This document shows positions 41,359 to 58,186 of a stretch of 64,000 bases of DNA, in pieces. The translations under genes were made by a program, and so were the position numbers. The stretch comes from Candidatus Babeliales bacterium. GTDB lineage: Bacteria; Babelota; Babeliae; Babelales; RVW-14. Numbering within the stretch: position 1 is the first letter of the stretch; each line of letters begins with the position of its first letter. The stretch lies in contig JAIEPG010000002.1 of NCBI GenBank assembly GCA_019749895.1, positions 133,750 through 197,749 of the forward strand. The letters run 5' to 3'. A model generated the notes under the pieces. It was not told where the DNA came from and did no database searches. It saw only the letters and a program-made list of their open reading frames with translations.

Positions 41359-41431
41359 AGACGAGTTATTAGTTTAGTTTAAATGAAAGCACCCGGCCCC
41401 TTACCATGCCTGGAGCAACTTGCGAGGAATT

Positions 41432-41782
41432 ATGTTTACTCTTTTGATGACACTATTTATCTTTTCATCACTCATTCTTGCTATCTTAATTTTAATTCAA
41501 CAAGGCAAAGGCGACATGGGCATGGGAAGTCTTGGCGGCAGCACACAGATGTTGTTTGGCGGCTCGGGCGGTCAGAATTTTTTTGAAAAAGCAACCTGGA
41601 TTCTTGGCGCTATCTTTTTGTTTGGCTCACTTGGCCTTACCGTTTTGAAAGCAAAAGAAACAAGAGAATCAAGCCTTAAAGGTTTTGTAAGTAAGAAACA
41701 AGCAAGCAAGCAACCAACTCAAGAATCTAAATCTCTTGATCTTGACATGGACTTGTCAAAAGACAGCAAAGAAACTGCTTAA
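41432..41782 (+). CDS. secG: Preprotein translocase subunit SecG with an extended polar C-tail
   Basis: LAILILIQQGKGDMG...GGSTQMLFGGSG is followed by a second TM helix. The tpiA-secG synteny is canonical. I preferred the ATG at 41432 over the track TTG at 41420. Confidence 0.85.
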   Translation: MFTLLMTLFIFSSLILAILILIQQGKGDMGMGSLGGSTQMLFGGSGGQNFFEKATWILGAIFLFGSLGLTVLKAKETRESSLKGFVSKKQASKQPTQESKSLDLDMDLSKDSKETA

Positions 41783-41865
41783 TAGATAAATTAATTATAA
41801 AAGAATTTTAGTGCGATTAACAGCAACGTAACACACCACCTTGAAAAATAGGAAATAGGAGATCG

Positions 41866-42639
41866 GTGTTAATTAAACTTGCTGACTACATTGGCGCAAA
41901 GTCAATTCATCTTTCTGAACGCCTGGGAAAAATTGGCCTTTTTCTTGGTGATTCAGTTATTACTTTGTTTACAACAAAGCTCAAGCTCAAAAAGTTTTTT
42001 TATTATATGAACTACATCGGCGTCAATTCGCTTGGTGTTGTTGGCCTGATTGGTGTTACCGGCGGAGCAGTTCTTGCCCTGCAAAGCTATATCGGCCTTC
42101 ATCGTTTTGGCGCAGAGCGCTTCATAGGCCCGGTAGTATTTCTTTCAATGACTCGCGAGCTTGGACCTGTCTTTACCGCAATTATGGTCATTGGACGCGC
42201 TGGTTCTGCTATTACTGCCGAAATTGGCACCATGCGGATTACGGAACAAATTGACGCTCTTCAAACACTCTGCATTAATGTTAAACAATATTTGGTGATT
42301 CCACGCATTTTAGCAGGAACTTTTATCTTACCTTTTCTTTCGATTATTTGCTCATTATCAGGAATTCTTGCTGGTTACATTACTGCTGTTTATGTTTTGG
42401 GCATTAATCCTGAAGTTTATATGGAAGCAATTCGCGAAAGCTCAGAACTTTCTGACATCACCATTGGACTTTTAAAAGCATGTGTATTTGGTTTTTTAAT
42501 TACGTTGGTAAGTACTTATAAAGGATACACTACCAGCGGCGGCTCAAAAGGCGTTGGCATTGCAACCACACAAAGCGTAGTTTTTTCTAACGTTACCATC
42601 TTTATTGCAAATTATATCTTAACCTCTTTACTGTTTTAA
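41866..42639 (+). CDS. mlaE: MlaE-family ABC transporter permease
   Basis: RELGPVFTAIMVIGRAGSAITAEIGTMRITEQIDAL is the signature region of MlaE/Ttg2B permeases. GTG start with AGGAG upstream. Confidence 0.9.
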   Translation: MLIKLADYIGAKSIHLSERLGKIGLFLGDSVITLFTTKLKLKKFFYYMNYIGVNSLGVVGLIGVTGGAVLALQSYIGLHRFGAERFIGPVVFLSMTRELGPVFTAIMVIGRAGSAITAEIGTMRITEQIDALQTLCINVKQYLVIPRILAGTFILPFLSIICSLSGILAGYITAVYVLGINPEVYMEAIRESSELSDITIGLLKACVFGFLITLVSTYKGYTTSGGSKGVGIATTQSVVFSNVTIFIANYILTSLLF

Positions 42640-42641
42640 TT

Positions 42642-43439
42642 ATGATACAGCTTACTGGTTTAAAAAAAGCATTCGGATCAAAAGAAATTACGCGCGGGCT
42701 TGATTTAACTATCAACACCGGCGAATTTATTGCTATCATTGGCAAATCTGGCGAAGGAAAATCTGTTTTACTTAAACAGATTATTGGTTTAATTAAACCA
42801 GACGCCGGCGAAGTAATTATTGATAATGAAGACGTAACCAAACTAAAAGGCAGAAAACAACAGGAAGTTTTTAAAAAATGCGGCTATGTTTTTCAGTTTG
42901 CCGCTCTTTTAGACTCATTAACCGTTTTTGAAAATATTGGCATTACGCTTTTGGAAGAAAATATTCCACAAGAAAAAGTTTTGCCCCTTGTCATTGAGAA
43001 GCTTAACAGCGTTGGACTAAGCCAAGATGTTTTGGACCGATACCCAGCAGAGCTTTCTGGTGGTATGAAAAAACGTGTTGGCCTTGCCCGAACACTCATG
43101 CTCACCCCAAAAATTCTGTTGTACGACGAACCAACAACGGGGCTAGACCCCATGACCACACGCCTTATTCATGAATTAATTTTAGACACGCATCAAAAAT
43201 TTAATATCACCACTGTTGTTATTTCGCACGATATTGAAGTATTTAAATTTGCTACCCATGTTGCCATGCTTTATGAAGGTAAAATTGTTTATAAAGGCGA
43301 TGCTAAAACAATTTGGGAATGCGATAATCCGTATATTTATCAGTTTATTCGCGGGCTACCTGAAGGACCTATTGAACAGGTAGGAACGCAGCAAACAAAC
43401 CAACCAGGTACTCCAACCAACGAAGACTCTCAACAATGA
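42642..43439 (+). CDS. mlaF: MlaF-family ABC transporter ATP-binding protein
   Basis: Walker A GKSGEGKS, signature LSGGMKKR, Walker B LLYDEPT, H-loop ISHD. Confidence 0.9.
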   Translation: MIQLTGLKKAFGSKEITRGLDLTINTGEFIAIIGKSGEGKSVLLKQIIGLIKPDAGEVIIDNEDVTKLKGRKQQEVFKKCGYVFQFAALLDSLTVFENIGITLLEENIPQEKVLPLVIEKLNSVGLSQDVLDRYPAELSGGMKKRVGLARTLMLTPKILLYDEPTTGLDPMTTRLIHELILDTHQKFNITTVVISHDIEVFKFATHVAMLYEGKIVYKGDAKTIWECDNPYIYQFIRGLPEGPIEQVGTQQTNQPGTPTNEDSQQ

Positions 43440-44725
43440 TTTATGAAAAACCATTTATTTTAATTATCGACGACGAAACAGCAATTCTAAAAACACTCAA
43501 AGAAGCTTTAGAAGATGAAGACTTTCGCGTACAAACACTAGCAGAACCCCGTCAAGCTCTTGAGCTGATTGGCCAATTAGTGCCCGACCTCATTTTACTC
43601 GACATTTCTATGCCTCACGTCAACGGCATTGATTTGTTAGAAAATATTAAAAAAGAATACCCTCAACAAAAAATCATCATGATTTCTGGCTACGGCAATA
43701 TACAACTCGCTCTTGAAGCAATACGCAAGGGCGCTTACGATTTTATAGAAAAGCCACTTAATTTGGACGAAGTTTTACCTAAAATTGAATTCTTAAAAAC
43801 CAGTTCAACTGCATGGCCACAACAACAAATCACGCCAAATAAGTTTTATGAACAACAAGGCATTGTAGGGAAAAGCTATTTTTTTCAAGAATTTATTGAT
43901 CAAATACAACGCGTAGCTCCTTTAAAACTTCCATTGCTCATTTATGGCCACCACGGCACTGGTAAAAGCATGATGGCACGCTACACACACACGCTCAGCA
44001 GCATTGCGCAACTCCCTTTTCATATATTTAACTGCGGTTCAGACGATAACGCTAAAAATTTTGATGAGTTTCTTGCACAAACCGGAACGCTCTTTGTTAA
44101 AAATATTGATATGCTTTCACTACCATTGCAAAAAAATCTAGCTGCTCATCTTGAAAATAAAAGTATGGAAAATCAGCGCCTTATTGCATCAGCAAACTCT
44201 TCTCTTATTTCGCGCGTACAAAACGGCACCTTCAACAGCCTCCTCTTTTTTAAACTCAATGTAACCCCACTCGAAATTCCCGCACTCAACAAGCGGCCCT
44301 ACGATATTCCATTATTGATCGAACATTTTGTTGAAGAAAACAAAAAAAGACATCATAAAACAATCGTTTTTCCAACAACAACCGTACGCCTTTTGCGCAA
44401 CCACCCGTGGACCGGAAACGTGCGCGAACTTGAGCAGTTTATTGAAAAGGTCACACTGCTCGCACCTGAAGACCATTATGTTGTTACCCAAGACAAGCTT
44501 GAAATGTATTTGCAAGAAAAAGACATATCATTTGTTGAAGAACAAAGTTTTACCTTTTTTAATTCTCTTAATGAAGCAACATCGATGTTTGAAAAAAAAT
44601 TTCTGTTGTATCTTTTGAGAAAAAATAAATATGATCTTGATCAGGTTTCAAGCAAACTAAGTATCAATACTTCACAGCTGCGATCAAAGATGCTGGATCT
44701 TAACATTGATCTAAAAAGTTCTTGA
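43436..44725 (+). CDS. NtrC-family response regulator with a degenerate AAA+ domain (no GAFTGA, Walker B lost) and a Fis-type HTH
   Basis: The REC domain looks intact (IIDDE, LILLDISMP, FIEKP). In the AAA+ core, Walker A reads GHHGTGKS, the Walker B region reads LFVKNID instead of LFLDEI, and the GAFTGA segment is absent. WTGNVRELEQ is retained and a C-terminal HTH is present. The start overlaps the mlaF stop by 4 nt (ATGA). Confidence 0.8.
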   Translation: MIYEKPFILIIDDETAILKTLKEALEDEDFRVQTLAEPRQALELIGQLVPDLILLDISMPHVNGIDLLENIKKEYPQQKIIMISGYGNIQLALEAIRKGAYDFIEKPLNLDEVLPKIEFLKTSSTAWPQQQITPNKFYEQQGIVGKSYFFQEFIDQIQRVAPLKLPLLIYGHHGTGKSMMARYTHTLSSIAQLPFHIFNCGSDDNAKNFDEFLAQTGTLFVKNIDMLSLPLQKNLAAHLENKSMENQRLIASANSSLISRVQNGTFNSLLFFKLNVTPLEIPALNKRPYDIPLLIEHFVEENKKRHHKTIVFPTTTVRLLRNHPWTGNVRELEQFIEKVTLLAPEDHYVVTQDKLEMYLQEKDISFVEEQSFTFFNSLNEATSMFEKKFLLYLLRKNKYDLDQVSSKLSINTSQLRSKMLDLNIDLKSS

Positions 44726-44836
44726 TTCTCAAGTAAAAAAATTCACTTAGACATTCGTTAATTACCTGCTAAAATACCAACATGAAGTGTAATACATTAC
44801 GACTCATAAGGTTATTGATAATAGTGAGGAGTTACC

Positions 44837-45820
44837 ATGGACAACATAACTAATCCAGCAGCCGAACAAATTAAAGAACACAGTCTTAAATGGCAAACAC
44901 TCAAAAGTGAAATTCAAAAGGCTATTGTTGGTCAAGATTATGTTATTGATCGCGTTTTTATTGGCCTTTTGTGCGGCGGACACATTTTACTTGAAGGCGT
45001 ACCAGGCCTTGCAAAAACAACATTAATAAAAACAATTTCCCAAGCAATTGGTCTTGATTTTAAACGTATTCAATTTACGCCAGACCTTTTGCCAGCTGAC
45101 TTGCTGGGCACGCTGGTTTACAATCCAAAAACTCAAGAATTCCAGACCCGAAAAGGTCCAATTTTTACCAATCTCTTGCTGGCCGACGAAATCAACCGCG
45201 CCCCTGCCAAAGTACAGTCGGCATTGCTTGAAGCTATGCAAGAACGACAAATAACAATTGGCGACAACACATTTTATCTTGAAGACAACTTTTTGGTTTT
45301 AGCAACACAAAACCCGATTGACCAAGAGGGCACCTACCGCCTTCCTGAAGCACAGGTCGACCGGTTTATGTTTAAGCTCTTAATGGGCTACCCAACCATG
45401 CAAGAAGAAAAAGAGATTGTTTACAAAGCAAGCAACCCGCAAAAAATTACTACCGTTTTGGATAAAGAAGAAATTAACGCAGCAAAAAGTCTGGTCAACC
45501 AAGTTTATATCGACGACAAAGTTATTGAATACACTCTTAAACTTGTTTTTGCATCGCGCACACCACAAGACTTTAATTTGGATGATATTCATTTTTTCAT
45601 TCAGTACGGAGCCTCGCCCCGCGCAACATTGGCAATTAATCAAGCAGCTCGCGCTCATGCCTTTTTACGCAAACGCCACTTTGTAATTCCAGACGATGTT
45701 AAAGCAGTAGCTCCCGATATTTTGCGCCATCGTATTTTACTTACGTATGAAGCCGAGGCGGAAAATATTACCACCGACCAGATCATACAACAAATTTTAC
45801 GGACAATCCCAACTCCCTAA
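44837..45820 (+). CDS. MoxR-family AAA+ ATPase
   Basis: Walker A EGVPGLAKT, Walker B LLADEINRAPAKVQSALLEAMQE, and GASPRA in the C-terminal lid. 327 aa, typical MoxR size. Confidence 0.9.
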   Translation: MDNITNPAAEQIKEHSLKWQTLKSEIQKAIVGQDYVIDRVFIGLLCGGHILLEGVPGLAKTTLIKTISQAIGLDFKRIQFTPDLLPADLLGTLVYNPKTQEFQTRKGPIFTNLLLADEINRAPAKVQSALLEAMQERQITIGDNTFYLEDNFLVLATQNPIDQEGTYRLPEAQVDRFMFKLLMGYPTMQEEKEIVYKASNPQKITTVLDKEEINAAKSLVNQVYIDDKVIEYTLKLVFASRTPQDFNLDDIHFFIQYGASPRATLAINQAARAHAFLRKRHFVIPDDVKAVAPDILRHRILLTYEAEAENITTDQIIQQILRTIPTP

Positions 45821-45870: not shown

Positions 45871-45900
45871 TTGACAGACAAGAAATGGTAACAGTATCTT
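45871..45900 (+). promoter_or_regulatory. Candidate sigma70-type promoter of the secretin operon
   Basis: TTGACA-N18-TATCTT lies about 27 nt upstream of the gspC-like ATG (RBS AAGAGGA at 45910-45916). This is a sequence match only. Confidence 0.3.
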
Positions 45901-45926
45901 CGTAGTCTAAAAGAGGATATTTGGCT

Positions 45927-47231
45927 ATGAAGCAGCAATTATGGATACTGAACAGTTCACTCCTGGCAACTTTTTTTGCAATTTTAGTAATTGCAAAGCT
46001 TTTAAAGGTAGAACCACCTCGAGTTCGCATGAGACGAAGCTTTGCAGAAAAAATTGAAAAAAAAAAAGAAACACTCCCTGCATCATCATGGGAAAAAATT
46101 TATCAAAACGACGTATTTAAAACATACGTAGCCAAAGAATTTAAACCAGAAAAGGTTTCTTTGGTAACCCCAATCCCCGAACCTACTTCCCCAGAAGTCA
46201 AACCAGCTCCCGAACCTAAAAAACAAGAATTTATTGATGCGCTCAACATAACCCTCAAAGGTATCATTATATCTTCCGACGAACTTAAAAGCGTTGTTAT
46301 GATTGAAGATGAAACCCAAAAAGAGGGGCTTTATCATTTGGGGGACAAAGTTAAAGACGCACAAATTATTAAAATTTCTCGCAATCGCGTTGTATTATTA
46401 CGCGCCAACGGTCAACAGGAAGTATTCTTTTTGCGCAAAGACGACCCCGAGCTAGAGCTTGATGCGCAAGGCATGGACAAATGGCAGTATGTTGTTAAAA
46501 AAATTGACGATACTACCTACCATGTTGACCCTCATAATTTTAAACAAGCAATTGACTCACTGGGCAACTTTATTGAACGCGCCAGCATTGTTGGCACGGC
46601 ATACCAAAAGAATGTACCAATTGGCATTCGTGTGGGCGCTTTAGAAAAAGATGAGCTTGGGCACGCGCTTGGTTTGCAAAGTTATGATATAGTATTAGCC
46701 ATTAACGATATGAACACCGCCGATGTTAAAAATAGAATTAAAATTTACGATACCATTACCGCCATGAAGCTGAACAGCGAATTTACGGTAAAACTTAAAC
46801 GTAAAGAAGAAGATCTTGTTTATACGTATAAATTATCAACAATCAGCAAAGCAAAGAAAAAAATCTTCACCGGCAAAAAGCCAGACGAAGAAGGTAAGAA
46901 AAAAGAAGAAGCCGAAAAATTGAAAATGAGTAAAACGCAAGAACGTGAAAACTTAATTCGTGAATTCCGAAAACGGCACCCTCAAAATGACCAACGTTCA
47001 GCCATTGCAAAGATTAGACAGCGATTATTAGAAAATTTACGCGAACGCTTGAAAAATACTCGCACACGAGCACAAGATAGGCCTAACGATAGAACGCGAG
47101 GCAACAACCAAGCACCAAGCAACAACGGACCAGTAAAACAACAGAGCGCTCAAGCACAATCTGAAAGCACCAAGCAGCAGACAGCGCCCTCAGCGCCAGC
47201 ACAACAAGCGACCACACAAAAGAAAAAATAA
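45927..47231 (+). CDS. GspC-like protein (TM anchor + HR/PilP-like domain + PDZ) with a long charged tail
   Basis: N-terminal TM helix (LWILNSSLLATFFAILVIAKLL), an HR-like beta domain (ITLKGIIISSDELKSVVMIEDETQKEGLYHLGDKV..AQIIKISRNRVVLL) and a PDZ-like segment (GIRVGALEKDELGHALGLQSYDIVLAINDMN). The last ~130 aa are K/E/R/Q-rich. Confidence 0.65.
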   Translation: MKQQLWILNSSLLATFFAILVIAKLLKVEPPRVRMRRSFAEKIEKKKETLPASSWEKIYQNDVFKTYVAKEFKPEKVSLVTPIPEPTSPEVKPAPEPKKQEFIDALNITLKGIIISSDELKSVVMIEDETQKEGLYHLGDKVKDAQIIKISRNRVVLLRANGQQEVFFLRKDDPELELDAQGMDKWQYVVKKIDDTTYHVDPHNFKQAIDSLGNFIERASIVGTAYQKNVPIGIRVGALEKDELGHALGLQSYDIVLAINDMNTADVKNRIKIYDTITAMKLNSEFTVKLKRKEEDLVYTYKLSTISKAKKKIFTGKKPDEEGKKKEEAEKLKMSKTQERENLIREFRKRHPQNDQRSAIAKIRQRLLENLRERLKNTRTRAQDRPNDRTRGNNQAPSNNGPVKQQSAQAQSESTKQQTAPSAPAQQATTQKKK

Positions 47232-47248
47232 AAAGGAAGTAATTCCAC

Positions 47249-50200
47249 ATGAAAGAAAATAGGAACCAAGTAACCATGATTATTATCTTTTTCATGGCCT
47301 TACTAACCTTTACCACTTCAACAACCTGGCTAACCGCCATGCCGCCAGCAGCACCCGAAACTACTTCTGAAGAAGAAGAAGAGGTAGTAACTGCAGAGCC
47401 AGAAACTGACGATACAGCACCAACTGACAAACCTGAAGTTGGGGCTGAAGCTGAAGAAGCAACAGAACCAACAGACGAAACTGCCAACGAACCAGAAGAA
47501 GCGGCAGAGCCTGAAAAAACAGCAAAAAAGAAAAAAAAAGAAAAAAAAGTTGGCATGCCTGAGGCTGACGAAGAACCAGACATCGAACCCGCACCAGAGG
47601 ATCTTGAAGAGCTTGAAGAACCCTATCGAGAAAATACTGAAAAAGATCAAGAAGAAGCTGCCACAGAAAGCGAAGAACAAAATATTTATCTCAATTTTGA
47701 CAACACCGAGCTTTCAAATTTTATTAACTACATGGCGGACCTGAAAAAAATTAACTTAATCCCTGACAAGTCACTTGAAGGTAATAAAGTTTCGCTCACA
47801 ATTCGCGAACCACTCACCGTTGACGGGGCATGGAACATCTTTTTAACCGTTTTGGAAATGGCAGGCTTTAGCATTATTAAAGTTGGCGACGTTCACAAAA
47901 TTGTTCCTAAAGACCAAAAATTAACCCAGCCTCTGCCGTCCTTCATAAACGTCCCGGCAGACAGCCTGCCCGACAGCGATCTTTTGATTCGTTATGTTAT
48001 TTTCCTTGAAAACATTAAGGTTGAAAGCTTAACCGATCTCTTAAAAAGCATGCTGAGTATGACATCAGACGCTATTCCCCAAAATGATGTAAACGGCTTT
48101 ATTATTACCGACAAAGCATACAACATTAAAGCTGCTGTCAAACTGATTCAAGAACTTGACCAAACCGGCGAACTTGAAACCGTTGAAGTAATTCGCTTAA
48201 AACAAGCAAATGCTGAAGATGTTAAAACGTTGCTCAATTCATTAATTGAGCAACCTGAAGGCGGCGCTGGTGCGCTAGCCCGCTTGCTGGGCAAAGCATC
48301 TGAGGGAACCACTAAATACTTCCCTGCTGGCACTAAAATTATTGCAGAACCACGGACTAACTCTATTATTTTGATGGGCGCTCCAGGACCTATAAAAAAA
48401 ATAGAAGAATTTATTATTAACAATGTGGACACTACCCTCAAATCTGCCGCATCACCGCTTCATATTTTTGAATTGCAATATGCCGATGCCACACAAATTG
48501 CCGAAATTTTACAAGCGGTTACCGCCCCACCAGAAGGCGGACCTGGCCAACAAGCAACACAATACGGGGCTATTCGAGGCGGCGTAAAGTATTTTAAAAG
48601 TATGAAATTTTCGGTCGACAAAGAAGGCAACCGTTTAATTGTTTCAAGTACCGACAAAGAAGATTGGCACCTGCTCAAAAAAACAATACAAGATTTAGAT
48701 AAACCACAACCACAAATTGCCGTAGAAACATACATAGTTTCAGTAAACGCCGACGACGTTAAAGGTTTTGGCGGCATGTTACGCAATAAAAAACATGGCC
48801 AAATTGGTAATCACCTTGATTTTCAGTCAACGCCATTGACCGGAAATTCTGAACTAGAATACGACAGTGCTTCAAAACCGGTCAGCTTACTCGGTAATTT
48901 ACTCAACCAACTAGTTGCAAATCAAGGAGCTTCGTTGCTCACTATTGGTAAAGCCAGCAATATTTGGTCAGTATTCCAAGCAATAAATTCAGTTACTAAT
49001 GCTACTATTCTTACCCAACCATTCTTAACAGTTGCCAATAAAAAGAAAGCTTCGTTAGCTGTTGGCCGCACGGTCAGAGTAATTCAAGAACAAGCTGGCG
49101 ATGCCAAAGGTTTTGTCCCTATCGATGCTTCAACAAAAATTGATGTTGAGCCACAAATCAACCTTGATGGCATTATCAAAATGAATATCCAAACCACCAT
49201 CGAAGATTTTACTAATCCAGAATTGGGAAACAAGCAAATTAAAAAACTTGATACTAATGTTACCATTGCCGACGGGCAAGTACTGGTACTTGGTGGCTTT
49301 GTTCAAACAAAAGTTGAAGAAAGCAATGCAAAAACACCGCTTCTTGGCGATATTCCCATTGTTGGATGGCTGTTCAAAAATCAAAGCAGAAAAATTACCC
49401 GTACCTACATTTTTATTTTTATGTGCCCAACCATCATAAAACCGCGCCAACTGCCAGGCATGGAACTTTATACCAAAATGAAACTTCATGACGTAACTAA
49501 AGATATTGAAGAAAGCATACAAACAACCCACAGCCGTGATCCTATTTTCAACTGGTTCTTTAATCCAAAAAGCGGCAAGTATGCTGAAAATTATTCTCAT
49601 AAAGTTATCGATTTTGCCAATGCGCGCTATCAACCAACAACCGTTGATATTAAAAATGATTCATTTTATAGATCGTACACACAACGAGAAGAACTTGCCG
49701 GCAGTGATACCAATGAAGATTTAGTAAACCCGGAGCAAACACTCGCAGAAACACCAAGAACCTCAATGCCGGAATCAGCGACGAGTAATCAAGAAAAACT
49801 TGTTAAAGAACCAATACTACCCACAACACCCCGCCAACGTGCACCACAACCAGAACAACAATCTAAAATAACAGAAAAGAAAACACTGGCTGAGCAGGTT
49901 GAAAAATCTGAACAAAAGCCACGCAAATCAATGATGTCGAACAAAAACCTTGAAAACCGTCGACAAAAATTAAAAAATATTATTTCGGAAGAATTTGCCG
50001 GAAAAACATCAGAGCCGGTAAAGAAAAATACAGTCAAGGCTGCACTTAAAAATGAGTCACTCAAAGAGTTTATAGCCCCACAGTCCAAACGAGAGCAACT
50101 CAAAAAAGTACTTGATACAGAAAATGTTGCTCCTACGGCCAACCGAGCATCTTCAGAACCAGAAGAAAATCAACGTAAACGAAGAAGCCTCAAAGAGTTT

Positions 50201-50269
50201 TTTTCACAAAACCAACCCATAAAAAGACGCAAACCAACAACAACTGACCTAGAGGAAGAATTGGCATGA
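47249..50269 (+). CDS. Secretin A (GspD/PilQ family) with an acidic N-terminal region and a ~270-aa C-terminal extension
   Basis: An N0 domain (NIYLNFDNTELSNFINYMADLKKINLIPD...VSLTIREPLTVDGAWNIFLTVLEMAGFSIIKVGDVHKIVP), N1-N3-like repeats and a secretin core (VLVLGGFVQ...TPLLGDIPIVGWLFKNQ...IFIFMCPTIIKP) are present. Confidence 0.9.
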   Translation: MKENRNQVTMIIIFFMALLTFTTSTTWLTAMPPAAPETTSEEEEEVVTAEPETDDTAPTDKPEVGAEAEEATEPTDETANEPEEAAEPEKTAKKKKKEKKVGMPEADEEPDIEPAPEDLEELEEPYRENTEKDQEEAATESEEQNIYLNFDNTELSNFINYMADLKKINLIPDKSLEGNKVSLTIREPLTVDGAWNIFLTVLEMAGFSIIKVGDVHKIVPKDQKLTQPLPSFINVPADSLPDSDLLIRYVIFLENIKVESLTDLLKSMLSMTSDAIPQNDVNGFIITDKAYNIKAAVKLIQELDQTGELETVEVIRLKQANAEDVKTLLNSLIEQPEGGAGALARLLGKASEGTTKYFPAGTKIIAEPRTNSIILMGAPGPIKKIEEFIINNVDTTLKSAASPLHIFELQYADATQIAEILQAVTAPPEGGPGQQATQYGAIRGGVKYFKSMKFSVDKEGNRLIVSSTDKEDWHLLKKTIQDLDKPQPQIAVETYIVSVNADDVKGFGGMLRNKKHGQIGNHLDFQSTPLTGNSELEYDSASKPVSLLGNLLNQLVANQGASLLTIGKASNIWSVFQAINSVTNATILTQPFLTVANKKKASLAVGRTVRVIQEQAGDAKGFVPIDASTKIDVEPQINLDGIIKMNIQTTIEDFTNPELGNKQIKKLDTNVTIADGQVLVLGGFVQTKVEESNAKTPLLGDIPIVGWLFKNQSRKITRTYIFIFMCPTIIKPRQLPGMELYTKMKLHDVTKDIEESIQTTHSRDPIFNWFFNPKSGKYAENYSHKVIDFANARYQPTTVDIKNDSFYRSYTQREELAGSDTNEDLVNPEQTLAETPRTSMPESATSNQEKLVKEPILPTTPRQRAPQPEQQSKITEKKTLAEQVEKSEQKPRKSMMSNKNLENRRQKLKNIISEEFAGKTSEPVKKNTVKAALKNESLKEFIAPQSKREQLKKVLDTENVAPTANRASSEPEENQRKRRSLKEFFSQNQPIKRRKPTTTDLEEELA

Positions 50270-51966
50270 TAAAAAAAATATTCTTTCCTGCAAAAGTTGG
50301 TTCCCGTCGTCTGTATCCGGAATATATTCTTGGTGTTTCAATTGACGAACACAAAGTCTATGGTGCTCTTGTGTATGCTAAAAGTTCTCAAAATTTTGTT
50401 GAAAATTTGTTTGAGCAAACTATAGAAAAACAAGAAAACAATACGCACGAGCAAGCAACAGCACAGGCATTAAAAAAACTTGTTGCTGAGGTAAAAAATT
50501 ATGATCAGCTCAACGTTGCCATACCCTCTTCAATTGTTGTCTTTAAAGAACTTGAAGTGCCGTTTATTGATGAAGACAAAATACGCATGGTGCTTGAGTA
50601 CGAAATTGAAGAAAAATTACCTTTCTCAGTCAATGATGCGGTTGTTGATTTTATTATCACTAAAAAAAATAAAAGTCTTAATACTTCGCAAATTTTGGTG
50701 GCAGCCGTACGAAACCAAGACCTTCAAACTATTATTGATATTTACACAGCAGCTGACATTGCGCCACATCATATAACCATTGATTTATTTGCGCTGTACG
50801 GACTTTACTTGCAAATGCCAGAATTTAACAATAACGAAGAAACCAACGCACTGATTGAGCTTGATTTACATTCATCACGCATATCTCTGATCCACCACAA
50901 TGAACTGCGCATGACACGCCATGTCCCACGGGGTATTGCCACCGTTGCACAAGAAGTAAGCAAAGAAATTAATATACCGGTAGAAAAGACACTTGAAAAA
51001 TTGTTTAAATTTGGCCTCAAGCCAACCGGCGATGATACGTTTGATAAAAGCTTGCAGCAACATATGATCAATTTTTTTTATGATATTCAGTTTACGCTTA
51101 ATTCATTCAGTCTTAAACTGACTAGCTACAAAGGTATTAATAAGCTTTTATTTTGCGGACAAGCGGTAACTATTAATAACCTAATGCGCTTTTGTGGCGA
51201 TTTAATGCAACTACCCTGCATCATTTTTGATCCTTCCAATATCTTTACCAACAAAAGTATTAAGAAAAAACGCTTCAAACAAGAAACTATTGAATGGCAT
51301 GAATATGCAACCGTTTTGGGCGTTGCCTTGGTACCACCAGCACACGAACATTTTGACTTGCGCCGTAAAAAGTTTGAGTTAATTGATTATTCTTTAATCA
51401 AGAAGCAACTTATTGCCGGCCTTGTTTTAACGCTCGTACTTTTTACCACCATCAGTGTGCAAGGGTATTTTCAAATGAGCACCTTGGCCGCAACAGCCAA
51501 CGATCTTGAAAGTCATGAAATTGGTAAAATTATTGATATGATCCCGCGCCAAGACCGCCCGCGCACCAAGCAACTTAACCCAGTAATTGCACGAGCCGAA
51601 AAAGTTTTAAATGAAAAAATAGAACTCTGGGCGCCTTTTAAAAAAGAACGCATTCAACCGCTGGAAATATTACTCGAACTGACCAGCATTATGGACAATA
51701 AATTATTTATGATTGATGTTGAAGGCATAACTATTGATACAGCAGCACGAGGGTCTGATACGTTAAAAGTAGAAGTTGATGGTTACTTTAAATCTAAAAA
51801 GGGAACCGGTTCCCACTTTGCAGAATTTACCGAACTACAAAGACGGTTTGACAGCTCTAACCTGCTTAAGCCAGCAAAATACACCGAACACCCTGCTGGC
51901 GAAAAAGGCATCCAATTTAATGTTGAATTAAAAAAACATGACGAAGCTGGCGAAGAACAAGTATGA
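50266..51966 (+). CDS. PilM::PilN fusion (GspL-like): cytoplasmic actin-like domain + TM + periplasmic domain
   Basis: A PilM-like pattern is present (LGVSIDEHKVYG..., VAIPSSIVVFKELEVPFIDEDKIRMVLEYEIEEKLPFSVNDAVVDF, ILVAAVRNQDLQTIIDIYTAADIAPHHITIDLFAL). It is followed by one TM helix (LIAGLVLTLVLFTTISVQGYF) and a ~170-aa periplasmic part. The start overlaps the secretin A stop by 4 nt. Confidence 0.7.
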   Translation: MIKKIFFPAKVGSRRLYPEYILGVSIDEHKVYGALVYAKSSQNFVENLFEQTIEKQENNTHEQATAQALKKLVAEVKNYDQLNVAIPSSIVVFKELEVPFIDEDKIRMVLEYEIEEKLPFSVNDAVVDFIITKKNKSLNTSQILVAAVRNQDLQTIIDIYTAADIAPHHITIDLFALYGLYLQMPEFNNNEETNALIELDLHSSRISLIHHNELRMTRHVPRGIATVAQEVSKEINIPVEKTLEKLFKFGLKPTGDDTFDKSLQQHMINFFYDIQFTLNSFSLKLTSYKGINKLLFCGQAVTINNLMRFCGDLMQLPCIIFDPSNIFTNKSIKKKRFKQETIEWHEYATVLGVALVPPAHEHFDLRRKKFELIDYSLIKKQLIAGLVLTLVLFTTISVQGYFQMSTLAATANDLESHEIGKIIDMIPRQDRPRTKQLNPVIARAEKVLNEKIELWAPFKKERIQPLEILLELTSIMDNKLFMIDVEGITIDTAARGSDTLKVEVDGYFKSKKGTGSHFAEFTELQRRFDSSNLLKPAKYTEHPAGEKGIQFNVELKKHDEAGEEQV

Positions 51967-52502
51967 TGGAATTTTTTACTCATTTTACCAATTTTATTGC
52001 CCACCTAGCGCCCAAGCAGCTCAAAAAATATCTATTGGGCGTTTTGCTCATTGTTGGCTTGCTAACCATTTCACTTAAATATTTTATTTACACCAAAAGT
52101 CACGATCTGGTTACACGCATTAAACGACTTGAAAAGCTTGATGGCAAAATAAGCGACATGCAAGATAAATACGAAATGTTGCTGGGGGAAGAAGAGCGCA
52201 TTCAAGGGCTTTTAAACAAACACAAAGATTTTAATATTAAAAGTTACTTTGAAGCTTTTTATAAAGAACAACATATCTCGCCAGAAGCGGGATGGGACAC
52301 CGACGTACGTTCAATTAATGAAAAATTTGATGAAATTGCATTGTCAGCAACGTTTAAAGATCAAACAACAGAAAAATTAGTAAAAATCCTTGAAGAAATC
52401 GAAAAAAAAGAAATACTGTCAGTGAAAAGCTTGAACGTTAAAACCGATAAAGATAAAAAAATTAGTTTCGATATAGTAATTGCCACGATTAAAGCTAAGT
52501 AA
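51963..52502 (+). CDS. PilO/GspM-like bitopic membrane protein
   Basis: The 179-aa protein has an N-terminal TM helix (LLGVLLIVGLLTISLKYFIY), a coiled-coil segment and a small C-terminal alpha/beta domain. The call rests on position and architecture only. The start overlaps the upstream stop by 4 nt. Confidence 0.5.
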   Translation: MMEFFTHFTNFIAHLAPKQLKKYLLGVLLIVGLLTISLKYFIYTKSHDLVTRIKRLEKLDGKISDMQDKYEMLLGEEERIQGLLNKHKDFNIKSYFEAFYKEQHISPEAGWDTDVRSINEKFDEIALSATFKDQTTEKLVKILEEIEKKEILSVKSLNVKTDKDKKISFDIVIATIKAK

Positions 52503-52513
52503 GGAAACGGCCA

Positions 52514-55024
52514 ATGCGATGCACAATCAATCATTTTTTTCATGTGATTGCCAAAGCAATCTTATTGGTATTTTTGCTATGCGCTCCAGCATGGGCAGCT
52601 CCAAAGGCATCGCTAGCACAACCAGCAGCAAAGCGTGCAAATGTTAGCGTCAATTTTGACGCACCCAGCACTAATGACAAAAAAACAGAAGAAGCACCAA
52701 CTGCAACAACACAAGAAAATAAGAGCCTGCCTGCGAAAAAACAAAACGACACAAATACAGATTTTTATAACAAAGAAAATAAAGAAAACCAAGATCAAGC
52801 AAATATTTACCTCAACTTTGAAAATGCAAGCTTGGGAAGCGTTTTAAATTATTTAGCCGAACAAAAAAAGATTAACGTGTTACCACAAGGCGATCTTGAA
52901 GAACAAAAGGTCTCGCTGACCACGCGCAACCCGCTCACACTCGATCGCGCATGGAACGTGCTGCTTACGCTGCTAGAAATGAATGGCTTTAGCATTGTTA
53001 AAGTTGGCGATTTGCATCGCGTGATCTCCAATAAAGACAATGGACACGAACCATTACCAAGTTATTCGTCGCGCAAAGGAACCGAGCCTGAAGATCTACC
53101 AGACAGTGATTTAGTAGTTCGTTACATCTATTTCTTCAAAAATATGCAGGCCGAAGTTGCACAAAGCATTTTGACAACCATGCTTGAAGGCGACGGCGCG
53201 GTGCAAGTAAACCAAGACTTGCAAGTGTGCATTATGAAAGAAAAGTGCTTTAACATTAAAGCCGCGATGCGCATTGTTAAAGAGCTCGACATTGGCGGTT
53301 TGCGTGAAGGTATTAAAATTATTCAGCTTCAAGAAGCTGATTCTGAAGCCGTAGAAACATTATTTAAAGAAGTTTTGGGTAGCGAAGACGAATCGCGCAG
53401 AATTCGTTTTATTAATAAAGCTTCCCAGCAAGGAAAATCATATTTCTCTTCAGCAACAAAAATTTTTGCATATCCTGCTAAAAATTCCATTATCTTACTT
53501 GGCATGCAAAAAAATATTGAACGCATTACTGACTTTATTTATAAACACATCGACGTACCAATTGGTACTGCTCAATCGCGTATTCACATCAAAGAAGTGC
53601 GCTATGCAAAGTCAGAAAATCTTAAACCAATTCTTGAAAATATTGTTAAACCACCAGCAGGCCAAGGCTCTGAAAAAAGCCCAGTTGTTGGTAAATTTAA
53701 ATTTTTTGAAGACGTTATTATTGCTGCTGAAGGCGAAGGACAAGAAGCTGGGCGCGGCAGCGGCAACCGCTTAATTGTTGCGTGCAACCAAGAAGACTGG
53801 GTACGTCTTGAAAAATTTATTGATAAATTAGACAAACCACAAGCTCAAGTAGCCTTTGAAGTTATGATCATTGACGTTACGCTTGACCAAGCAAAAGAAC
53901 TTGGCGCTCAATTTCAAAATAAACAAGGCAATCAAATAGGCTTGGGCCTCAACAGCATTGAACTTACAAATCTTAGCTCAGGTGCAGATCTAACTCGAAA
54001 TCAAGTACCAGCAGGATCAGAAGAAATTGGTATGAAAAATTTAATTGATCTTACAACAAAAGAGAATTTGGGCCAAGGCTATCCAAGCTTTTTAACACTT
54101 GGTAAAACAGGCATTATTAATGGTATGCGCGAAAGCAATATTTGGGCAATAGTTCGCAGTGTTTTTAAAACAGACAATGCCCACATTATTGGCCAACCTT
54201 ACATTGTAACTAACAATGGCCAACCTTGCTTTATTGAAGTTACCGAACAACGACGCGTTGACGCAGGCTTGCGTTCAGAACGTGGTGAACAAGTGCGTAC
54301 AACCAAAGAATCTCTCGATGCTGCAACCCGCGTTGATTTAACACCTCAAATAAATTCTGACGGAATTATTGACCTTTCAATTAAAATACAACTCGACAGC
54401 TTTGAAAGCACTGACCCAAACAAAGAAGCGAACAAAAGCACGCGTAATATTGAAACACGCGCTAACATAGCTGCTGGCGAGGTATTGGTACTTGGCGGAC
54501 TAAAGGTAAGCGGGCAAACAATTAATTTATGGAAAACCCCAATTTTAGGAGACATTCCAATTCTTGGTAATTTATTTAAAAGCAAAACAAAAGCAAAAAC
54601 AGAAAAGAATTTGTATGTCTTTATCCGCCCTTCAATAATCAAACCAAAATTTGAAGGAGCACCAGACGAATACACGCAACTTAAACTTGATTATGCAAAA
54701 CTACAAATGATGAAGAACGATCTTTATATTAAAGATAGCGATCCAATTCAACGCTGGTTTTTTAGACCAACTAACTATTCAGTAAAACAAACTATTGCTG
54801 ACGCTAAAAATGGCCGCATGCGACCAATTGATAAATTTACCTACGGACAAAACACGCCAAAACTAGTCAACATTCAAGAAGATCCGTATTTTAAAGATGC
54901 TGAAAGTCTTGCAAAACAACGAGAGTTAAAACAACGCCGACGTAACAGGTTTGCCGGCGCCAAGGTTGCATCGATTGACCAAGACCCTCTTGATCAGCTA
55001 AAGTCACGAAAAAAGAAAGCTTAA
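52514..55024 (+). CDS. Secretin B (GspD/PilQ family), paralog of secretin A
   Basis: Signal peptide (LLCAPAWA-AP), an N0 domain (NIYLNFENASLGSVLNYLAEQKKINVLPQ...VSLTTRNPLTLDRAWNVLLTLLEMNGFSIVKVGDLHRVIS) and a secretin core (VLVLGGLKV...TPILGDIPILGNLFKSK...LYVFIRPSIIKP). Confidence 0.9.
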   Translation: MRCTINHFFHVIAKAILLVFLLCAPAWAAPKASLAQPAAKRANVSVNFDAPSTNDKKTEEAPTATTQENKSLPAKKQNDTNTDFYNKENKENQDQANIYLNFENASLGSVLNYLAEQKKINVLPQGDLEEQKVSLTTRNPLTLDRAWNVLLTLLEMNGFSIVKVGDLHRVISNKDNGHEPLPSYSSRKGTEPEDLPDSDLVVRYIYFFKNMQAEVAQSILTTMLEGDGAVQVNQDLQVCIMKEKCFNIKAAMRIVKELDIGGLREGIKIIQLQEADSEAVETLFKEVLGSEDESRRIRFINKASQQGKSYFSSATKIFAYPAKNSIILLGMQKNIERITDFIYKHIDVPIGTAQSRIHIKEVRYAKSENLKPILENIVKPPAGQGSEKSPVVGKFKFFEDVIIAAEGEGQEAGRGSGNRLIVACNQEDWVRLEKFIDKLDKPQAQVAFEVMIIDVTLDQAKELGAQFQNKQGNQIGLGLNSIELTNLSSGADLTRNQVPAGSEEIGMKNLIDLTTKENLGQGYPSFLTLGKTGIINGMRESNIWAIVRSVFKTDNAHIIGQPYIVTNNGQPCFIEVTEQRRVDAGLRSERGEQVRTTKESLDAATRVDLTPQINSDGIIDLSIKIQLDSFESTDPNKEANKSTRNIETRANIAAGEVLVLGGLKVSGQTINLWKTPILGDIPILGNLFKSKTKAKTEKNLYVFIRPSIIKPKFEGAPDEYTQLKLDYAKLQMMKNDLYIKDSDPIQRWFFRPTNYSVKQTIADAKNGRMRPIDKFTYGQNTPKLVNIQEDPYFKDAESLAKQRELKQRRRNRFAGAKVASIDQDPLDQLKSRKKKA

Positions 55025-57643: not shown

Positions 57644-58186
57644 TTATTGATCAACTGGATGATTTTTGCGCCATTCAACCTCTGCATTCTGCAACGCTTG
57701 CGCCCATTTCAAAAATCCTTTACTTGCAGCAACCATTGCAGGCGTTACTCCGTTATTATCTTCCAGCGTTGGATTAGCTCCTCTTGCAAAAAGCAGCTTT
57801 ATCGCTTCAATATTTTCCCAATAGACTGCCCAATGCAGGGGTGATCGGCCATACTTACTATCTCGAACATTGGGATCAACAACAAGATTAAAAAGAATCT
57901 CTGAATGCTCGCTATATCCTTTGCAAGAAGAGATATGCGCAAGCGTATTACTTATTGATTGTGGAGAAATACACCCTGACCGATGCCCCAAACCACTACA
58001 AAAAGAGCTCGGGCTGAATCTTAATTCATGCTGATTACGCGGCGTAAAAATAGTGTAAAAATGCTGAAGAACCGACGTTACTTCATCAGATATATAATCC
58101 GAAGTAAGCATCGGCGCAGCACTCGAACTCGCCGAACCTGCCAGCAAAAAAGAAGTAAAGAAAAGTACAAATGATTTTTTAATCAT
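57644..58186 (-). CDS. Secreted ankyrin-repeat protein
   Basis: Sec-type signal peptide (MIKKSFVLFFTSFLLAGSASSSAAP) plus ANK repeat sequence (GRSPLHWAVYWENIEAIKLLFARGANPTLEDNNGVTPAMVAA). It overlaps the cysK stop by 8 nt and ends 2 nt before the dapF start. Confidence 0.8.
   Translation of the reverse strand: MIKKSFVLFFTSFLLAGSASSSAAPMLTSDYISDEVTSVLQHFYTIFTPRNQHELRFSPSSFCSGLGHRSGCISPQSISNTLAHISSCKGYSEHSEILFNLVVDPNVRDSKYGRSPLHWAVYWENIEAIKLLFARGANPTLEDNNGVTPAMVAASKGFLKWAQALQNAEVEWRKNHPVDQ

What the first reader, a model, noticed from the sequence alone, without database searches (positions are those of the whole stretch)
45927..55024. Secretin operon with two paralogous secretins and no motor or pilin genes: gspC-like, secretin A, PilM::PilN (GspL-like), PilO/GspM-like, secretin B
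Five same-strand genes are packed with 4-nt start/stop overlaps (50266/50269 and 51963/51966) or gaps of 11-17 nt, so they almost certainly form one operon.

- **Parts present:** the operon encodes only the outer-membrane and alignment parts of a T2SS/T4P-class machine. These are a TM+HR+PDZ GspC-like protein, a fused PilM-TM-PilN protein with GspL topology, a PilO/GspM-like protein and two full-length secretins.
- **Paralogy:** the two secretins are clearly paralogs. Their N0 domains align residue for residue (NIYLNFDNTELSNFINYMADLKKINLIPD.. versus NIYLNFENASLGSVLNYLAEQKKINVLPQ..), as do their secretin cores.
- **Parts missing:** the canonical gsp order is C-D-E-F-G-H-I-J-K-L-M. Here the whole E-K block (ATPase, platform, pseudopilins) is missing between D and L, and a second D follows M. 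No GspE/PilB, GspF/PilC, pilin or prepilin peptidase gene occurs within ~9 kb on either side.

Two secretins co-transcribed around one alignment complex suggests a hetero-oligomeric channel, two channels sharing one inner-membrane scaffold, or a secretin conduit powered by something other than a GspE-type ATPase. I do not know of a described system with this layout.
Basis: partly seen in the sequence, partly recalled or inferred. Interest (0 to 1): 0.85.

Follow-up and report, generated by a model that had tools for sequence, protein, structure and literature searches.

The report
Two-secretin secretion operon of Dependentiae
This is the outer-membrane and scaffold half of the type II secretion / type IV pilus-like machine of a Dependentiae (TM6) parasite; its two co-transcribed secretin paralogues are real and occur across the phylum. 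The motor and pilin genes are reported elsewhere in related genomes rather than missing.

Summary
Five tightly packed same-strand genes encode a GspC-like protein, secretin A, a PilM–TM–PilN-like fusion with GspL topology, a PilO/GspM-fold protein and secretin B. Both secretins are full-length GspD-type proteins, 36% identical to each other.

- **Organism:** a Dependentiae/Babeliales (TM6) bacterium.
- **Conservation:** the same C-D-L-M-D order occurs in all 53 Dependentiae loci I fetched. A conserved sigma-70-like promoter lies upstream in 39 of 45 loci.
- **Paralogy:** A and B form two separate orthologue groups, so the duplication predates the sampled radiation. One lineage has four secretins (A-A-L-M-B-B).
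- **Missing parts:** no ATPase, platform, pilin or prepilin peptidase gene lies in the 64-kb window or within 10 kb of any related locus.

"No motor" is a property of the locus, not shown for the genome. The published COG table for Babela and TM6SC1 lists two PulE, two PulF, pilins and PulO, but only one PilM. I confirmed one solitary Babela PulF.

Two gspD copies in all TM6 genomes were already noted in 2015. The operon layout, the A/B groups and the four-secretin variant appear undescribed in what I could search. My verdict is a new variant of a known kind, of moderate interest.

The parts
45871..45900 (+). Promoter-like site, TTGACA-N18-TATCTT, followed by the conserved CGTAGTCT, 26 nt upstream of the gspC-like start
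   Evidence: Consensus scan scores it 10 of 12. The motif CTTGACA-N17/18-TATCTT(CGTAGTCT) occurs at the same place in 39 of 45 Dependentiae loci, and no sigma-54-type motif occurs in any.
45927..47231 (+). GspC-like protein: N-terminal TM anchor, HR (T2SSC) domain, PDZ domain and a low-complexity basic tail
   Evidence: Pfam T2SSC 7.8e-9 and weak PDZ_2. NCBIfam GspC_delta 9.5e-24 over its full length, but 84.7 bits against a cut-off of 150. Orthologues carry clear PDZ hits.
47249..50269 (+). Secretin A (1006 aa): signal peptide, acidic disordered spacer, N0-N1-N2-N3, secretin core and a long basic C-terminal tail
   Evidence: Pfam N0, Secretin_N x3 and Secretin. Best solved-structure matches are full-length GspD (5zdh 4.4e-41). 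TIGR02517 gspD gives 303 bits against PilQ 155. The A orthologue group is found in 49 sequences.
50266..51966 (+). PilM-like cytoplasmic actin-fold domain fused through one TM helix to a PilN/GspL-type periplasmic domain (GspL topology)
   Evidence: PilM_2 2.8e-22 and T2SSL 2e-6. By sequence it matches only PilM structures in the PDB. The AF2 model of residues 360-566 shows a TM/coiled coil plus an alpha-beta-beta-alpha-beta-beta domain, pLDDT 81.8, and its top Foldseek hit is PilO 2rjz at a borderline E = 2.3e-3. At least 199 homologues were found; the 120 listed are about 550-575 aa and all that carry an organism name are Dependentiae/Babeliales/TM6.
51963..52502 (+). PilO/GspM-fold bitopic inner-membrane protein (179 aa)
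   Evidence: No Pfam, NCBIfam or PDB sequence match. The AF2 model has pLDDT 85.8. Foldseek top hits are PilO 3jc8_O (2.1e-4) and 2rjz (TM-target 0.63, rmsd 2.9 A), plus EpsM 1uv7 (TM-target 0.73).
52514..55024 (+). Secretin B (836 aa): signal peptide, spacer, N0-N3, secretin core and a basic tail
   Evidence: Pfam N0, Secretin_N and Secretin. It matches full-length GspD structures (5zdh 4.3e-33). TIGR02517 gives 263 bits against PilQ 144. It is 36% identical to A. The B orthologue group is found in 41 sequences.

Best explanation
The operon encodes the outer-membrane and alignment sub-complex of the single type II secretion / type IV filament-class machine of a Dependentiae (Babeliales) intracellular parasite.

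**Proposed parts and roles.**
- GspC (TM-HR-PDZ) anchors in the inner membrane and docks through its HR domain on the N0 domain of the secretins.
- The PilM-TM-PilN fusion plays the GspL role. With the PilO/GspM-fold protein it forms the inner-membrane scaffold that links the cytoplasmic ATPase and platform to the periplasmic ring.
- Two ancient GspD paralogues, A and B, form the outer-membrane channels.
- The ATPases (GspE/PilB type), platform proteins (GspF/PilC type), pilins or pseudopilins and the prepilin peptidase are encoded singly elsewhere in the genome.

**Most likely arrangement.** A and B each form a channel, and both dock on the one C/L/M scaffold. Each would be served by one of the two E/F pairs. 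This would give a protein-secretion mode and possibly a fibre mode.

**Shown here:** domain identities, folds, operon structure, phylum-wide conservation, the age of the duplication, and the absence of motor genes at the locus.

**Taken from the literature on relatives:** the presence of motors elsewhere in the genome.

**Inferred:** the docking, the stoichiometry, and what is exported.
For: - **Domain and fold assignments:**
- **Operon structure:** the 4-nt overlaps and short gaps are conserved in relatives; the secretin A stop overlaps the PilMN start in most loci.
- **Own promoter:** a promoter-like motif lies upstream of gspC in 39 of 45 loci.
- **Conservation:** the same gene order is found in all 53 Dependentiae loci, at 29-96% PilMN identity.
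- **Two orthologue groups:** mean identity is 51% within A, 44% within B and 32% between A and B. The nearest neighbour is always of the same type, and a neighbour-joining tree splits them.
- **Shared partner:** N0 is the domain most alike between the paralogues (57% in the window, 44% on average, against 25-39% for other domains). This fits one docking partner for both.
- **Motors elsewhere:** the Babela/TM6SC1 COG table gives PulE 2/2, PulF 2/2, PulG 3/0, PilE 1/1, PulO 1/1, PilM 1/1 and PilT 0/0. Babela PulF, P0121 (Pfam T2SSF), stands alone at 517.9 kb of HG793133.1. A canonical pilin lies next to PulO in Babela.
[quoted passage not shown] T2SS and possibly T4P components are in the TM6 core gene set (PMC4776705).
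Against: - The source genome of this window could not be searched beyond its 64 kb. Motors elsewhere are inferred from other Dependentiae, not shown for this organism.
- I could not show GspE/GspF and the secretin operon on the same contig in any genome.
- I did not confirm that Babela carries this same operon layout.
- No pili were seen on Babela by electron microscopy (Yeoh et al.).
- The L-like protein resembles PilM far more than GspL in sequence. The M-like protein has no sequence match to GspM or PilO. The GspC, GspD and PilM matches all fall below NCBIfam's cut-offs. The system is therefore not a textbook T2SS.
- Nothing here tests which protein binds which, or what is secreted.
Confidence: 0.72

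Rival explanations
1. A and B work as an obligate pair. They would form a mixed (hetero-oligomeric) ring, or two stacked or concentric rings making one conduit, rather than two independent channels.
For: - The two genes are always co-transcribed in the same operon, in all loci long enough to show both.
- Both have been kept since before the sampled radiation.
- In locus L051 both paralogues were tandemly duplicated in parallel (A-A-L-M-B-B, each pair 48-50% identical), which keeps a 1:1 ratio.
- There is a single GspC, L and M for both.
Against: - To my knowledge (not a tool result) no hetero-oligomeric secretin has been described, and solved secretin structures are homo-oligomers.
- The COG table gives three PulD in Babela, not an even number.
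- Two PulE and two PulF per genome fit two parallel machines equally well.
- No interaction data or multimer modelling were available.
Confidence: 0.25
2. The locus builds a secretin conduit that does not use a GspE-type motor and is driven or assembled by another ATPase. The obvious candidate is the MoxR-type AAA+ protein encoded just upstream.
For: - No GspE/F gene lies in the window or within 10 kb of any of the 53 loci.
- MoxR lies directly upstream in 38 of 41 loci, with a typical gap of about 90 nt.
Against: - PulE and PulF homologues are listed in the two Dependentiae genomes tabulated, and one solitary PulF was confirmed.
- The operon keeps a PilM/GspL-type domain, whose known role is to couple to GspE/PilB-type ATPases (established knowledge).
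- MoxR is missing at this position in 3 of 41 loci (L033-L035).
- A conserved promoter-like site separates MoxR from the operon.
- The conserved block also contains unrelated housekeeping genes (tpiA, secG, mlaEF), so neighbourhood alone says little.
Confidence: 0.04
3. The locus is a decaying or redundant duplicate of a complete gsp or pil cluster located elsewhere.
For: Only the incompleteness of the locus relative to the canonical gspC-M order supports this.
Against: - All five genes are intact, and both secretins are full-length and conserved, in nearly all loci whose contigs reach them. A few loci (L015, L036, L049) show split or shortened secretin ORFs that I did not follow up.
- Only one PilM-type gene is counted in Babela and in TM6SC1.
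- The COG table of the Babela paper shows no entry for PulC, PulL, PulM, PilN, PilO or PilQ in the text held.
Confidence: 0.01

Closest known systems
Type II secretion system (Gsp/Pul/Eps), e.g. E. coli, Vibrio and Klebsiella gspC-M
   Same: - It has a GspC with HR and PDZ domains.
- Both secretins align over their full length (N0-N3 plus core) with solved GspD structures.
- It has an L-type bitopic protein with a cytoplasmic actin-like domain and a periplasmic ferredoxin-like domain.
- It has an M-type bitopic partner.
- No PilT is counted in relatives.
   Different: - It has two co-transcribed GspD paralogues (up to four in one lineage).
- The E-K block is not in the operon, and related genomes carry those genes scattered singly.
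- The L protein is PilM-like in sequence (PilM_2 79.5 bits against T2SSL 27.8).
- The M protein has no sequence match to T2SSM.
- The gene order is C-D-L-M-D.
- All NCBIfam equivalog scores are below their cut-offs.
Type IVa pilus alignment/secretin operon pilMNOPQ (Pseudomonas, Neisseria, Myxococcus)
   Same: - It is a stand-alone operon for the alignment complex plus secretin, with the ATPases, platform, pilins and peptidase encoded elsewhere.
- It has a PilM-type cytoplasmic domain.
- It has PilN/PilO-type folds.
   Different: - PilM and PilN are fused into one protein.
- A GspC (TM + HR + PDZ) takes the place of the lipoprotein PilP.
- The secretins are GspD-type with N0-N3 and have no AMIN domains.
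- There are two secretins rather than one.
- The COG table counts no PilT in the two relatives tabulated.
Published notes on Dependentiae/TM6 genomes (Yeoh et al. 2015, PMC4776705; Pagnier et al. 2015, PMC4378268; Deeg et al. 2019, PMC6561590)
   Same: - They concern the same genes.
- They report two gspD copies in all TM6 genomes and no pilQ.
- They report T2SS and possibly T4P components in the core gene set.
- They report a T2SS as the only secretion system in Babela.
[quoted passage not shown]
   Different: In the text I could read, those papers do not describe:
- the operon layout;
- the PilM-N fusion;
- the PilO-fold protein;
- the separate A and B orthologue groups;
- the four-secretin variant;
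- the conserved promoter-like motif.
Akkermansia muciniphila Amuc_1098-1102 pilus-like cluster
   Same: - The fusion protein has a weak NCBIfam match to the roughly 600-residue PilM-like Amuc_1101 family.
- Both secretin C-termini have weak matches to the Amuc_1098 family.
- The Amuc_1100 structure (6kny) appears among the Foldseek hits of both ferredoxin-like domains.
   Different: - Scores are far below the family cut-offs (62 bits against 650, and 52-61 against 750).
- Amuc_1098 has a TPR/BAM-like N-terminus rather than N0-N3.
- That cluster is described with a single secretin.

Membership tests
Type II secretion system (T2SS) | GspC with HR domain (and PDZ) | tested here: met
   Pfam T2SSC 35.9 bits against a cut-off of 27. 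PDZ is clear in orthologues. NCBIfam GspC_delta matches over its full length but reaches 84.7 bits against a cut-off of 150.
Type II secretion system (T2SS) | GspD secretin with N0-N1-N2-N3 plus secretin core | tested here: met
   Both A and B align over their full length to GspD structures and to positions 1-593 of 600 in TIGR02517. They score 303 and 263 bits against an equivalog cut-off of 351.
Type II secretion system (T2SS) | GspL: cytoplasmic actin-like domain, one TM helix and a periplasmic ferredoxin-like domain | tested here: met
   Pfam T2SSL scores 27.8 bits against a cut-off of 25.5, and PilM_2 scores much higher. The C-terminal model shows a TM helix plus an alpha-beta-beta-alpha-beta-beta domain. 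TIGR01709 gspL gives only 24.8 bits against a cut-off of 65. The topology is met, but the sequence family is PilM-like.
Type II secretion system (T2SS) | GspM | tested here: inconclusive
   There is no sequence match; one of 26 orthologues hits T2SSM at 0.0044. The fold matches PilO and EpsM, which cannot tell GspM from PilO.
Type II secretion system (T2SS) | GspE ATPase, GspF platform, pseudopilins G-K and prepilin peptidase in the genome | not testable with these tools
   These are absent from the 64-kb window and from 53 related loci. They are reported for Babela and TM6SC1, and one Babela PulF was confirmed. The rest of the source genome was not available.
Type II secretion system (T2SS) | One contiguous gsp cluster with a single secretin | tested here: not met
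   The order is C-D-L-M-D with two secretins and no E-K block.
Type IVa pilus machine (PilMNOPQ) | PilM actin-like ATP-binding protein | tested here: met
   PilM_2 scores 79.5 bits against a cut-off of 27. The PDB sequence hits are PilM only. TIGR01175 gives 93.9 bits against a cut-off of 133. Nucleotide binding was not examined.
Type IVa pilus machine (PilMNOPQ) | Separate PilN, and a PilP lipoprotein | tested here: not met
   The PilN-like part is fused to PilM. The HR-domain protein is GspC-type with a TM anchor and a PDZ domain.
Type IVa pilus machine (PilMNOPQ) | PilQ secretin with AMIN domains | tested here: not met
   No AMIN hit was found. PilQ structures and TIGR02515 match only the C-terminal part and at about half the GspD score.
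Type IVa pilus machine (PilMNOPQ) | PilT retraction ATPase | not testable with these tools
   COG2805 is counted 0 in Babela and 0 in TM6SC1. It could not be tested for the source genome.

The most novel reading that the evidence does not exclude
The two GspD paralogues are obligate partners. They would form a mixed or two-layer secretin assembly on a single GspC / PilM-N / PilO scaffold, which would be the first heteromeric secretin.

The architecture has been kept throughout a phylum of intracellular parasites. In one lineage it was duplicated pairwise to A-A-L-M-B-B.

The PilM-N fusion would then also be a living intermediate between type IVa pilus PilM/PilN and T2SS GspL.
Probability: 0.25. 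Interest if true: 0.75.

Novelty: new variant of a known kind. Interest (0 to 1): 0.5.

Why it matters
Dependentiae are a widespread phylum of obligate intracellular parasites of protists. The published analysis of Babela found this to be the only dedicated secretion system across the outer membrane, so it is the likely export route for their large sets of ankyrin-repeat and other host-directed proteins.

For the secretion field, it offers three things:
- A natural case of two (up to four) co-transcribed GspD paralogues sharing one GspC/L/M set. This makes it directly testable whether secretins can be heteromeric or can share a scaffold.
- A chimeric part list (GspC + GspD + PilM-N fusion + PilO-fold) that bears on how T2SS and type IVa pili diverged.
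- A conserved promoter-like motif that may help define Dependentiae transcription signals.

Tried and rejected
1. **Motor or pilin genes nearby.** Pfam on window ORFs of at least 150 aa, a six-frame prepilin-motif scan, and tblastn with E. coli GspE-K/O and Babela PilE/PulO/PulF all found nothing. This holds for the window and for 53 related loci. Caveat: E. coli GspF did not detect the Babela PulF control, so divergent platform genes could be missed. Babela PulF itself did detect both controls.
2. **Same-contig proof.** I tried to show GspE/GspF and the operon on one contig by searching with Babela PulF. Only a few Dependentiae homologues came back, and no contig was shared with the PilMN or PilO hits. 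I could not obtain a Dependentiae GspE sequence because the Babela supplement is truncated.
3. **Sigma-54 promoter.** I looked for one in front of the operon because an NtrC-type activator lies upstream. None was found in 45 loci.
4. **The 179-aa protein by sequence.** Pfam, NCBIfam and a PDB profile search gave no credible hit. Only the predicted fold was informative.
5. **Literature.** Searches for two secretins or hetero-oligomeric secretins, and for 'Dependentiae' with 'secretin' or 'T2SS', returned nothing relevant.
6. **Decaying duplicate.** Rejected on conservation.
7. **MoxR as motor.** Considered and judged unlikely.
8. **Not used.** I left the metagenome and viral-contig scans and the representative-protein search unused, because their outputs carry no taxonomy and would be swamped by Dependentiae paralogues or by other phyla.

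Full report

Yes. The ORF list shows five same-strand genes at 45921/45927-47231, 47249-50269, 50266-51966, 51963-52502 and 52514-55024. They have the two 4-nt overlaps and the 17- and 11-nt gaps described.

Pfam gives the following:
- Gene 1: T2SSC above the gathering threshold, plus a weak PDZ match.
- Both large proteins: GspD-N0, Secretin_N and Secretin.
- Gene 3: PilM_2 (2.8e-22) plus T2SSL (2e-6).
- The 179-aa protein: nothing.

Secretins A and B align collinearly over 704 residues at 36% identity, E = 2e-132.

No ATPase, platform, pilin or prepilin peptidase gene was found anywhere in the 64-kb window. This rests on three tests:
- Pfam on ORFs of at least 150 aa.
- A six-frame prepilin-motif scan.
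- tblastn with E. coli GspE-K/O and Babela PilE/PulO/PulF.

**2. Whose genome is it?**

Homologues of the fusion protein number at least 199. The 120 listed are about 550-575 aa, and every one that carries an organism name is from Dependentiae, Babeliales or candidate division TM6. The best hit is 96% identical.

The window otherwise carries housekeeping genes (gyrB, tpiA, mlaEF, mreB, PNPase, ribosomal proteins) and an ankyrin-repeat protein.

**3. What are the parts?**

*Secretins.* Both match full-length solved GspD structures best (A: 5zdh 4.4e-41; B: 4.3e-33). PilQ, pIV, InvG and RcpA match only the C-terminal core and more weakly. NCBIfam gives type_II_gspD 303 and 263 bits over positions 1-593 of 600, against PilQ 155 and 144. 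The gspD scores are below the equivalog cut-off of 351. No AMIN domain was found. Both secretins are therefore divergent GspD-type proteins.

*The gene-3 protein.* By sequence it hits only PilM structures in the PDB. An AlphaFold2 model of its last 207 residues has pLDDT 81.8. It shows a long TM/coiled-coil helix followed by an alpha-beta-beta-alpha-beta-beta domain. Its best Foldseek hit is PilO 2rjz, at a borderline E = 2.3e-3 with probability 1.00. That is the fold shared by PilN, PilO, GspM and the periplasmic part of GspL. The protein has GspL topology with PilM-like sequence.

*The 179-aa protein.* It has no sequence match. Its model (pLDDT 85.8) has the same layout. Its top hits are PilO (3jc8_O 2.1e-4; 2rjz TM-target 0.63, rmsd 2.9 A) and EpsM/GspM (1uv7 TM-target 0.73).

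*Gene 1.* It matches NCBIfam GspC_delta over its full length, E = 9.5e-24, but below the cut-off.

**4. How widespread is the layout?**

Three look-ups of distant homologues (37-47% identity) showed the same arrangement inside a larger conserved block: tpiA, secG, mlaE, mlaF, an NtrC-like regulator, MoxR, then C-D-L-M-D.

A scan of one genome per species returned 50 more loci, at 29-96% identity. All those with an informative title are labelled Dependentiae, Babeliales or TM6. The rest are labelled generically ("bacterium"), and several are labelled "uncultured Pseudomonadota", which I take to be mislabelled.

- Every locus long enough shows GspC, secretin A, PilMN, the PilO-like gene and secretin B in that order.
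- The overlap between the secretin A stop and the PilMN start is kept in most loci.
- None of the 53 loci (0.93 Mb) has a GspE, F, G-K or O homologue within 10 kb.

Upstream of gspC, 39 of 45 loci carry the motif CTTGACA-N17/18-TATCTT, often followed by CGTAGTCT, at a similar distance from the start codon. The window copy is at 45871-45900. None carries a sigma-54-type motif. The five genes therefore look like a transcription unit of their own.

**5. How old are the two secretins?**

I compared 49 A-position and 41 B-position proteins.
- Mean identity is 51% within A, 44% within B and 32% between A and B.
- The nearest neighbour of every sequence is of the same type.
- A neighbour-joining tree rooted on E. 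coli GspD separates the two groups. Bootstrap support is only moderate (40 and 70 of 100).

The duplication therefore predates the sampled radiation, and both copies have been kept intact.

Between the paralogues, N0 is the most similar domain: 57% in the window and 44% on average, against 25-39% for the other folded domains. This is what one expects if both dock on the same partner, the single GspC. That reading is an inference.

In locus L051 there are four full-length secretin genes. The two upstream of PilMN are A-type and 48% identical to each other. The two downstream are B-type and 50% identical. Both paralogues were thus duplicated in parallel in that lineage.

**6. Where is the motor?**

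The literature answers this for relatives.
- Yeoh et al. 2015 state that T2SS and possibly T4P components belong to the TM6 core gene set. They also state that pilQ is absent and that two gspD copies occur in all genomes, and they ask whether one replaces PilQ.
- Pagnier et al. 2015 predict a T2SS as the only secretion system of Babela.
- Their COG table gives these counts for Babela / TM6SC1:

| COG name | Babela | TM6SC1 |
|---|---|---|
| PulD | 3 | 2 |
| PulE | 2 | 2 |
| PulF | 2 | 2 |
| PulG | 3 | 0 |
| PilV | 2 | 0 |
| PilE | 1 | 1 |
| PulO | 1 | 1 |
| PilM | 1 | 1 |
| PilT | 0 | 0 |

- Their gene table shows a canonical pilin next to PulO near 301 kb and a PulF at 517.9 kb.
- I confirmed that PulF (P0121, Pfam T2SSF) in HG793133.1. 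It has no other secretion gene within 10 kb. A 35%-identical homologue on another contig is equally solitary.

"No motor" is therefore a statement about the locus. I could not test it for this window's own genome, which is the main gap in the argument. I also did not confirm that Babela has this same operon layout.

Separately, a stand-alone operon for the alignment complex plus secretin is the normal state of pilMNOPQ in type IVa pilus systems (established knowledge).

**7. Most likely mechanism.**

The operon supplies the envelope-spanning stator of a T2SS-class type IV filament machine.
- GspC and the PilM-N/PilO pair sit in the inner membrane.
- GspD rings sit in the outer membrane.
- ATPase, platform and (pseudo)pilin parts encoded elsewhere complete the machine.

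The counts of two E, two F and two D against one C, one L and one M suggest two channels and two motors sharing one scaffold. I rank this first. An obligate A/B pairing is the main rival and is hinted at by the parallel duplication in L051. A conduit without a GspE-type motor, or one driven by MoxR, is unlikely. MoxR is directly upstream in 38 of 41 loci but absent in three, and it is separated from the operon by the conserved promoter-like site. A decaying duplicate is excluded by conservation.

**8. Comparison and novelty.**

The system works like a T2SS and partly like a pilMNOPQ module, but it fails the strict membership tests of both.
- It is not a contiguous gsp cluster.
- It has two secretins.
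- Its L protein is PilM-like.
- It has no separate PilN or PilP and no AMIN-PilQ.
- All NCBIfam equivalog scores are below their cut-offs.

The existence of two gspD genes in TM6 genomes has been known since 2015. In what I could search, the following appear undescribed:
- the C-D-L-M-D operon and its universality in the sampled phylum;
- the A and B orthologue groups;
- the four-secretin variant;
- the PilM-N fusion and the PilO-fold protein;
- the promoter-like motif.

I rate it a new variant of a known kind, with interest 0.5.

Noticed in passing
L051:3417-16811 (JARLHJ010000034.1, Ca. Babeliales MAG_BO39): The operon here has four full-length secretin genes: MoxR, GspC, D, D, PilMN, PilO-like, D, D. 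The first two are A-type (48% identical) and the last two are B-type (50% identical), so both paralogues were duplicated in parallel.
   Followed up: yes
window 45871-45914, and the same position in 39 of 45 related loci: A strongly conserved motif, CTTGACA-N17/18-TATCTTCGTAGTCT, lies upstream of gspC. It is probably a sigma-70-type promoter plus a conserved leader or operator, and it may reflect the general Dependentiae promoter consensus.
   Followed up: partly
window 43436-44725 and 44837-45820: An NtrC-type response regulator (receiver plus sigma-54-interaction AAA+ domain) and a MoxR AAA+ ATPase lie just upstream on the same strand. MoxR is directly upstream of gspC in 38 of 41 loci and the regulator is present in 32 of 41. 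No VWA partner for MoxR and no sigma-54 promoter were seen. Any functional link to the secretin operon is unknown.
   Followed up: partly
window 40564-45820, and L001-L003: A larger syntenic block, tpiA-secG-mlaE-mlaF-regulator-MoxR-operon, is kept between genomes whose PilMN proteins are only about 40% identical. That is unusually stable gene order for such divergence.
   Followed up: partly
window 47249-47680, 49650-50269, 46850-47231 and 54700-55024: Secretin A has an acidic, glutamate-rich N-terminal spacer of about 140 residues and a basic C-terminal tail of about 200 residues. Secretin B and the GspC-like protein also end in lysine/arginine-rich low-complexity tails. These regions are poorly conserved (column conservation 0.29-0.37). 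A short block just after the secretin core (DPIFNWFFNP in A, DPIQRWFFRP in B) is conserved in both paralogues, and its role is unknown.
   Followed up: partly
window 54-3803: A 1249-aa ORF carries three stretches matching Pfam Methyltransf_FA (farnesoic acid O-methyltransferase domain, E = 6.3e-46). I recall that domain as mostly eukaryotic, so this may be a host-like or horizontally acquired protein.
   Followed up: no
window 57644-58186: A small ankyrin-repeat protein, of the kind greatly expanded in Dependentiae and proposed as host-directed effectors (PMC4378268).
   Followed up: no
window 13627-15489, 36123-37638, 38969-40315 and 62079-63863: Several sizeable ORFs (182-620 aa) have no Pfam match at E <= 1e-5.
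   Followed up: no
L006, L010, L012, L013, L018, L023, L025, L038, L040, L041, L045, L048 and L049: Many third-party-annotated MAGs titled 'uncultured Pseudomonadota bacterium' carry this Dependentiae-type locus with the same flanking synteny. Their taxonomic labels are probably wrong.
   Followed up: no
L055 (Babela HG793133.1 507874-529073) and L056: The solitary T2SSF (PulF) gene is preceded in both genomes by a small PF1765-like/COG1872 gene, a conserved pairing of unknown meaning.
   Followed up: no
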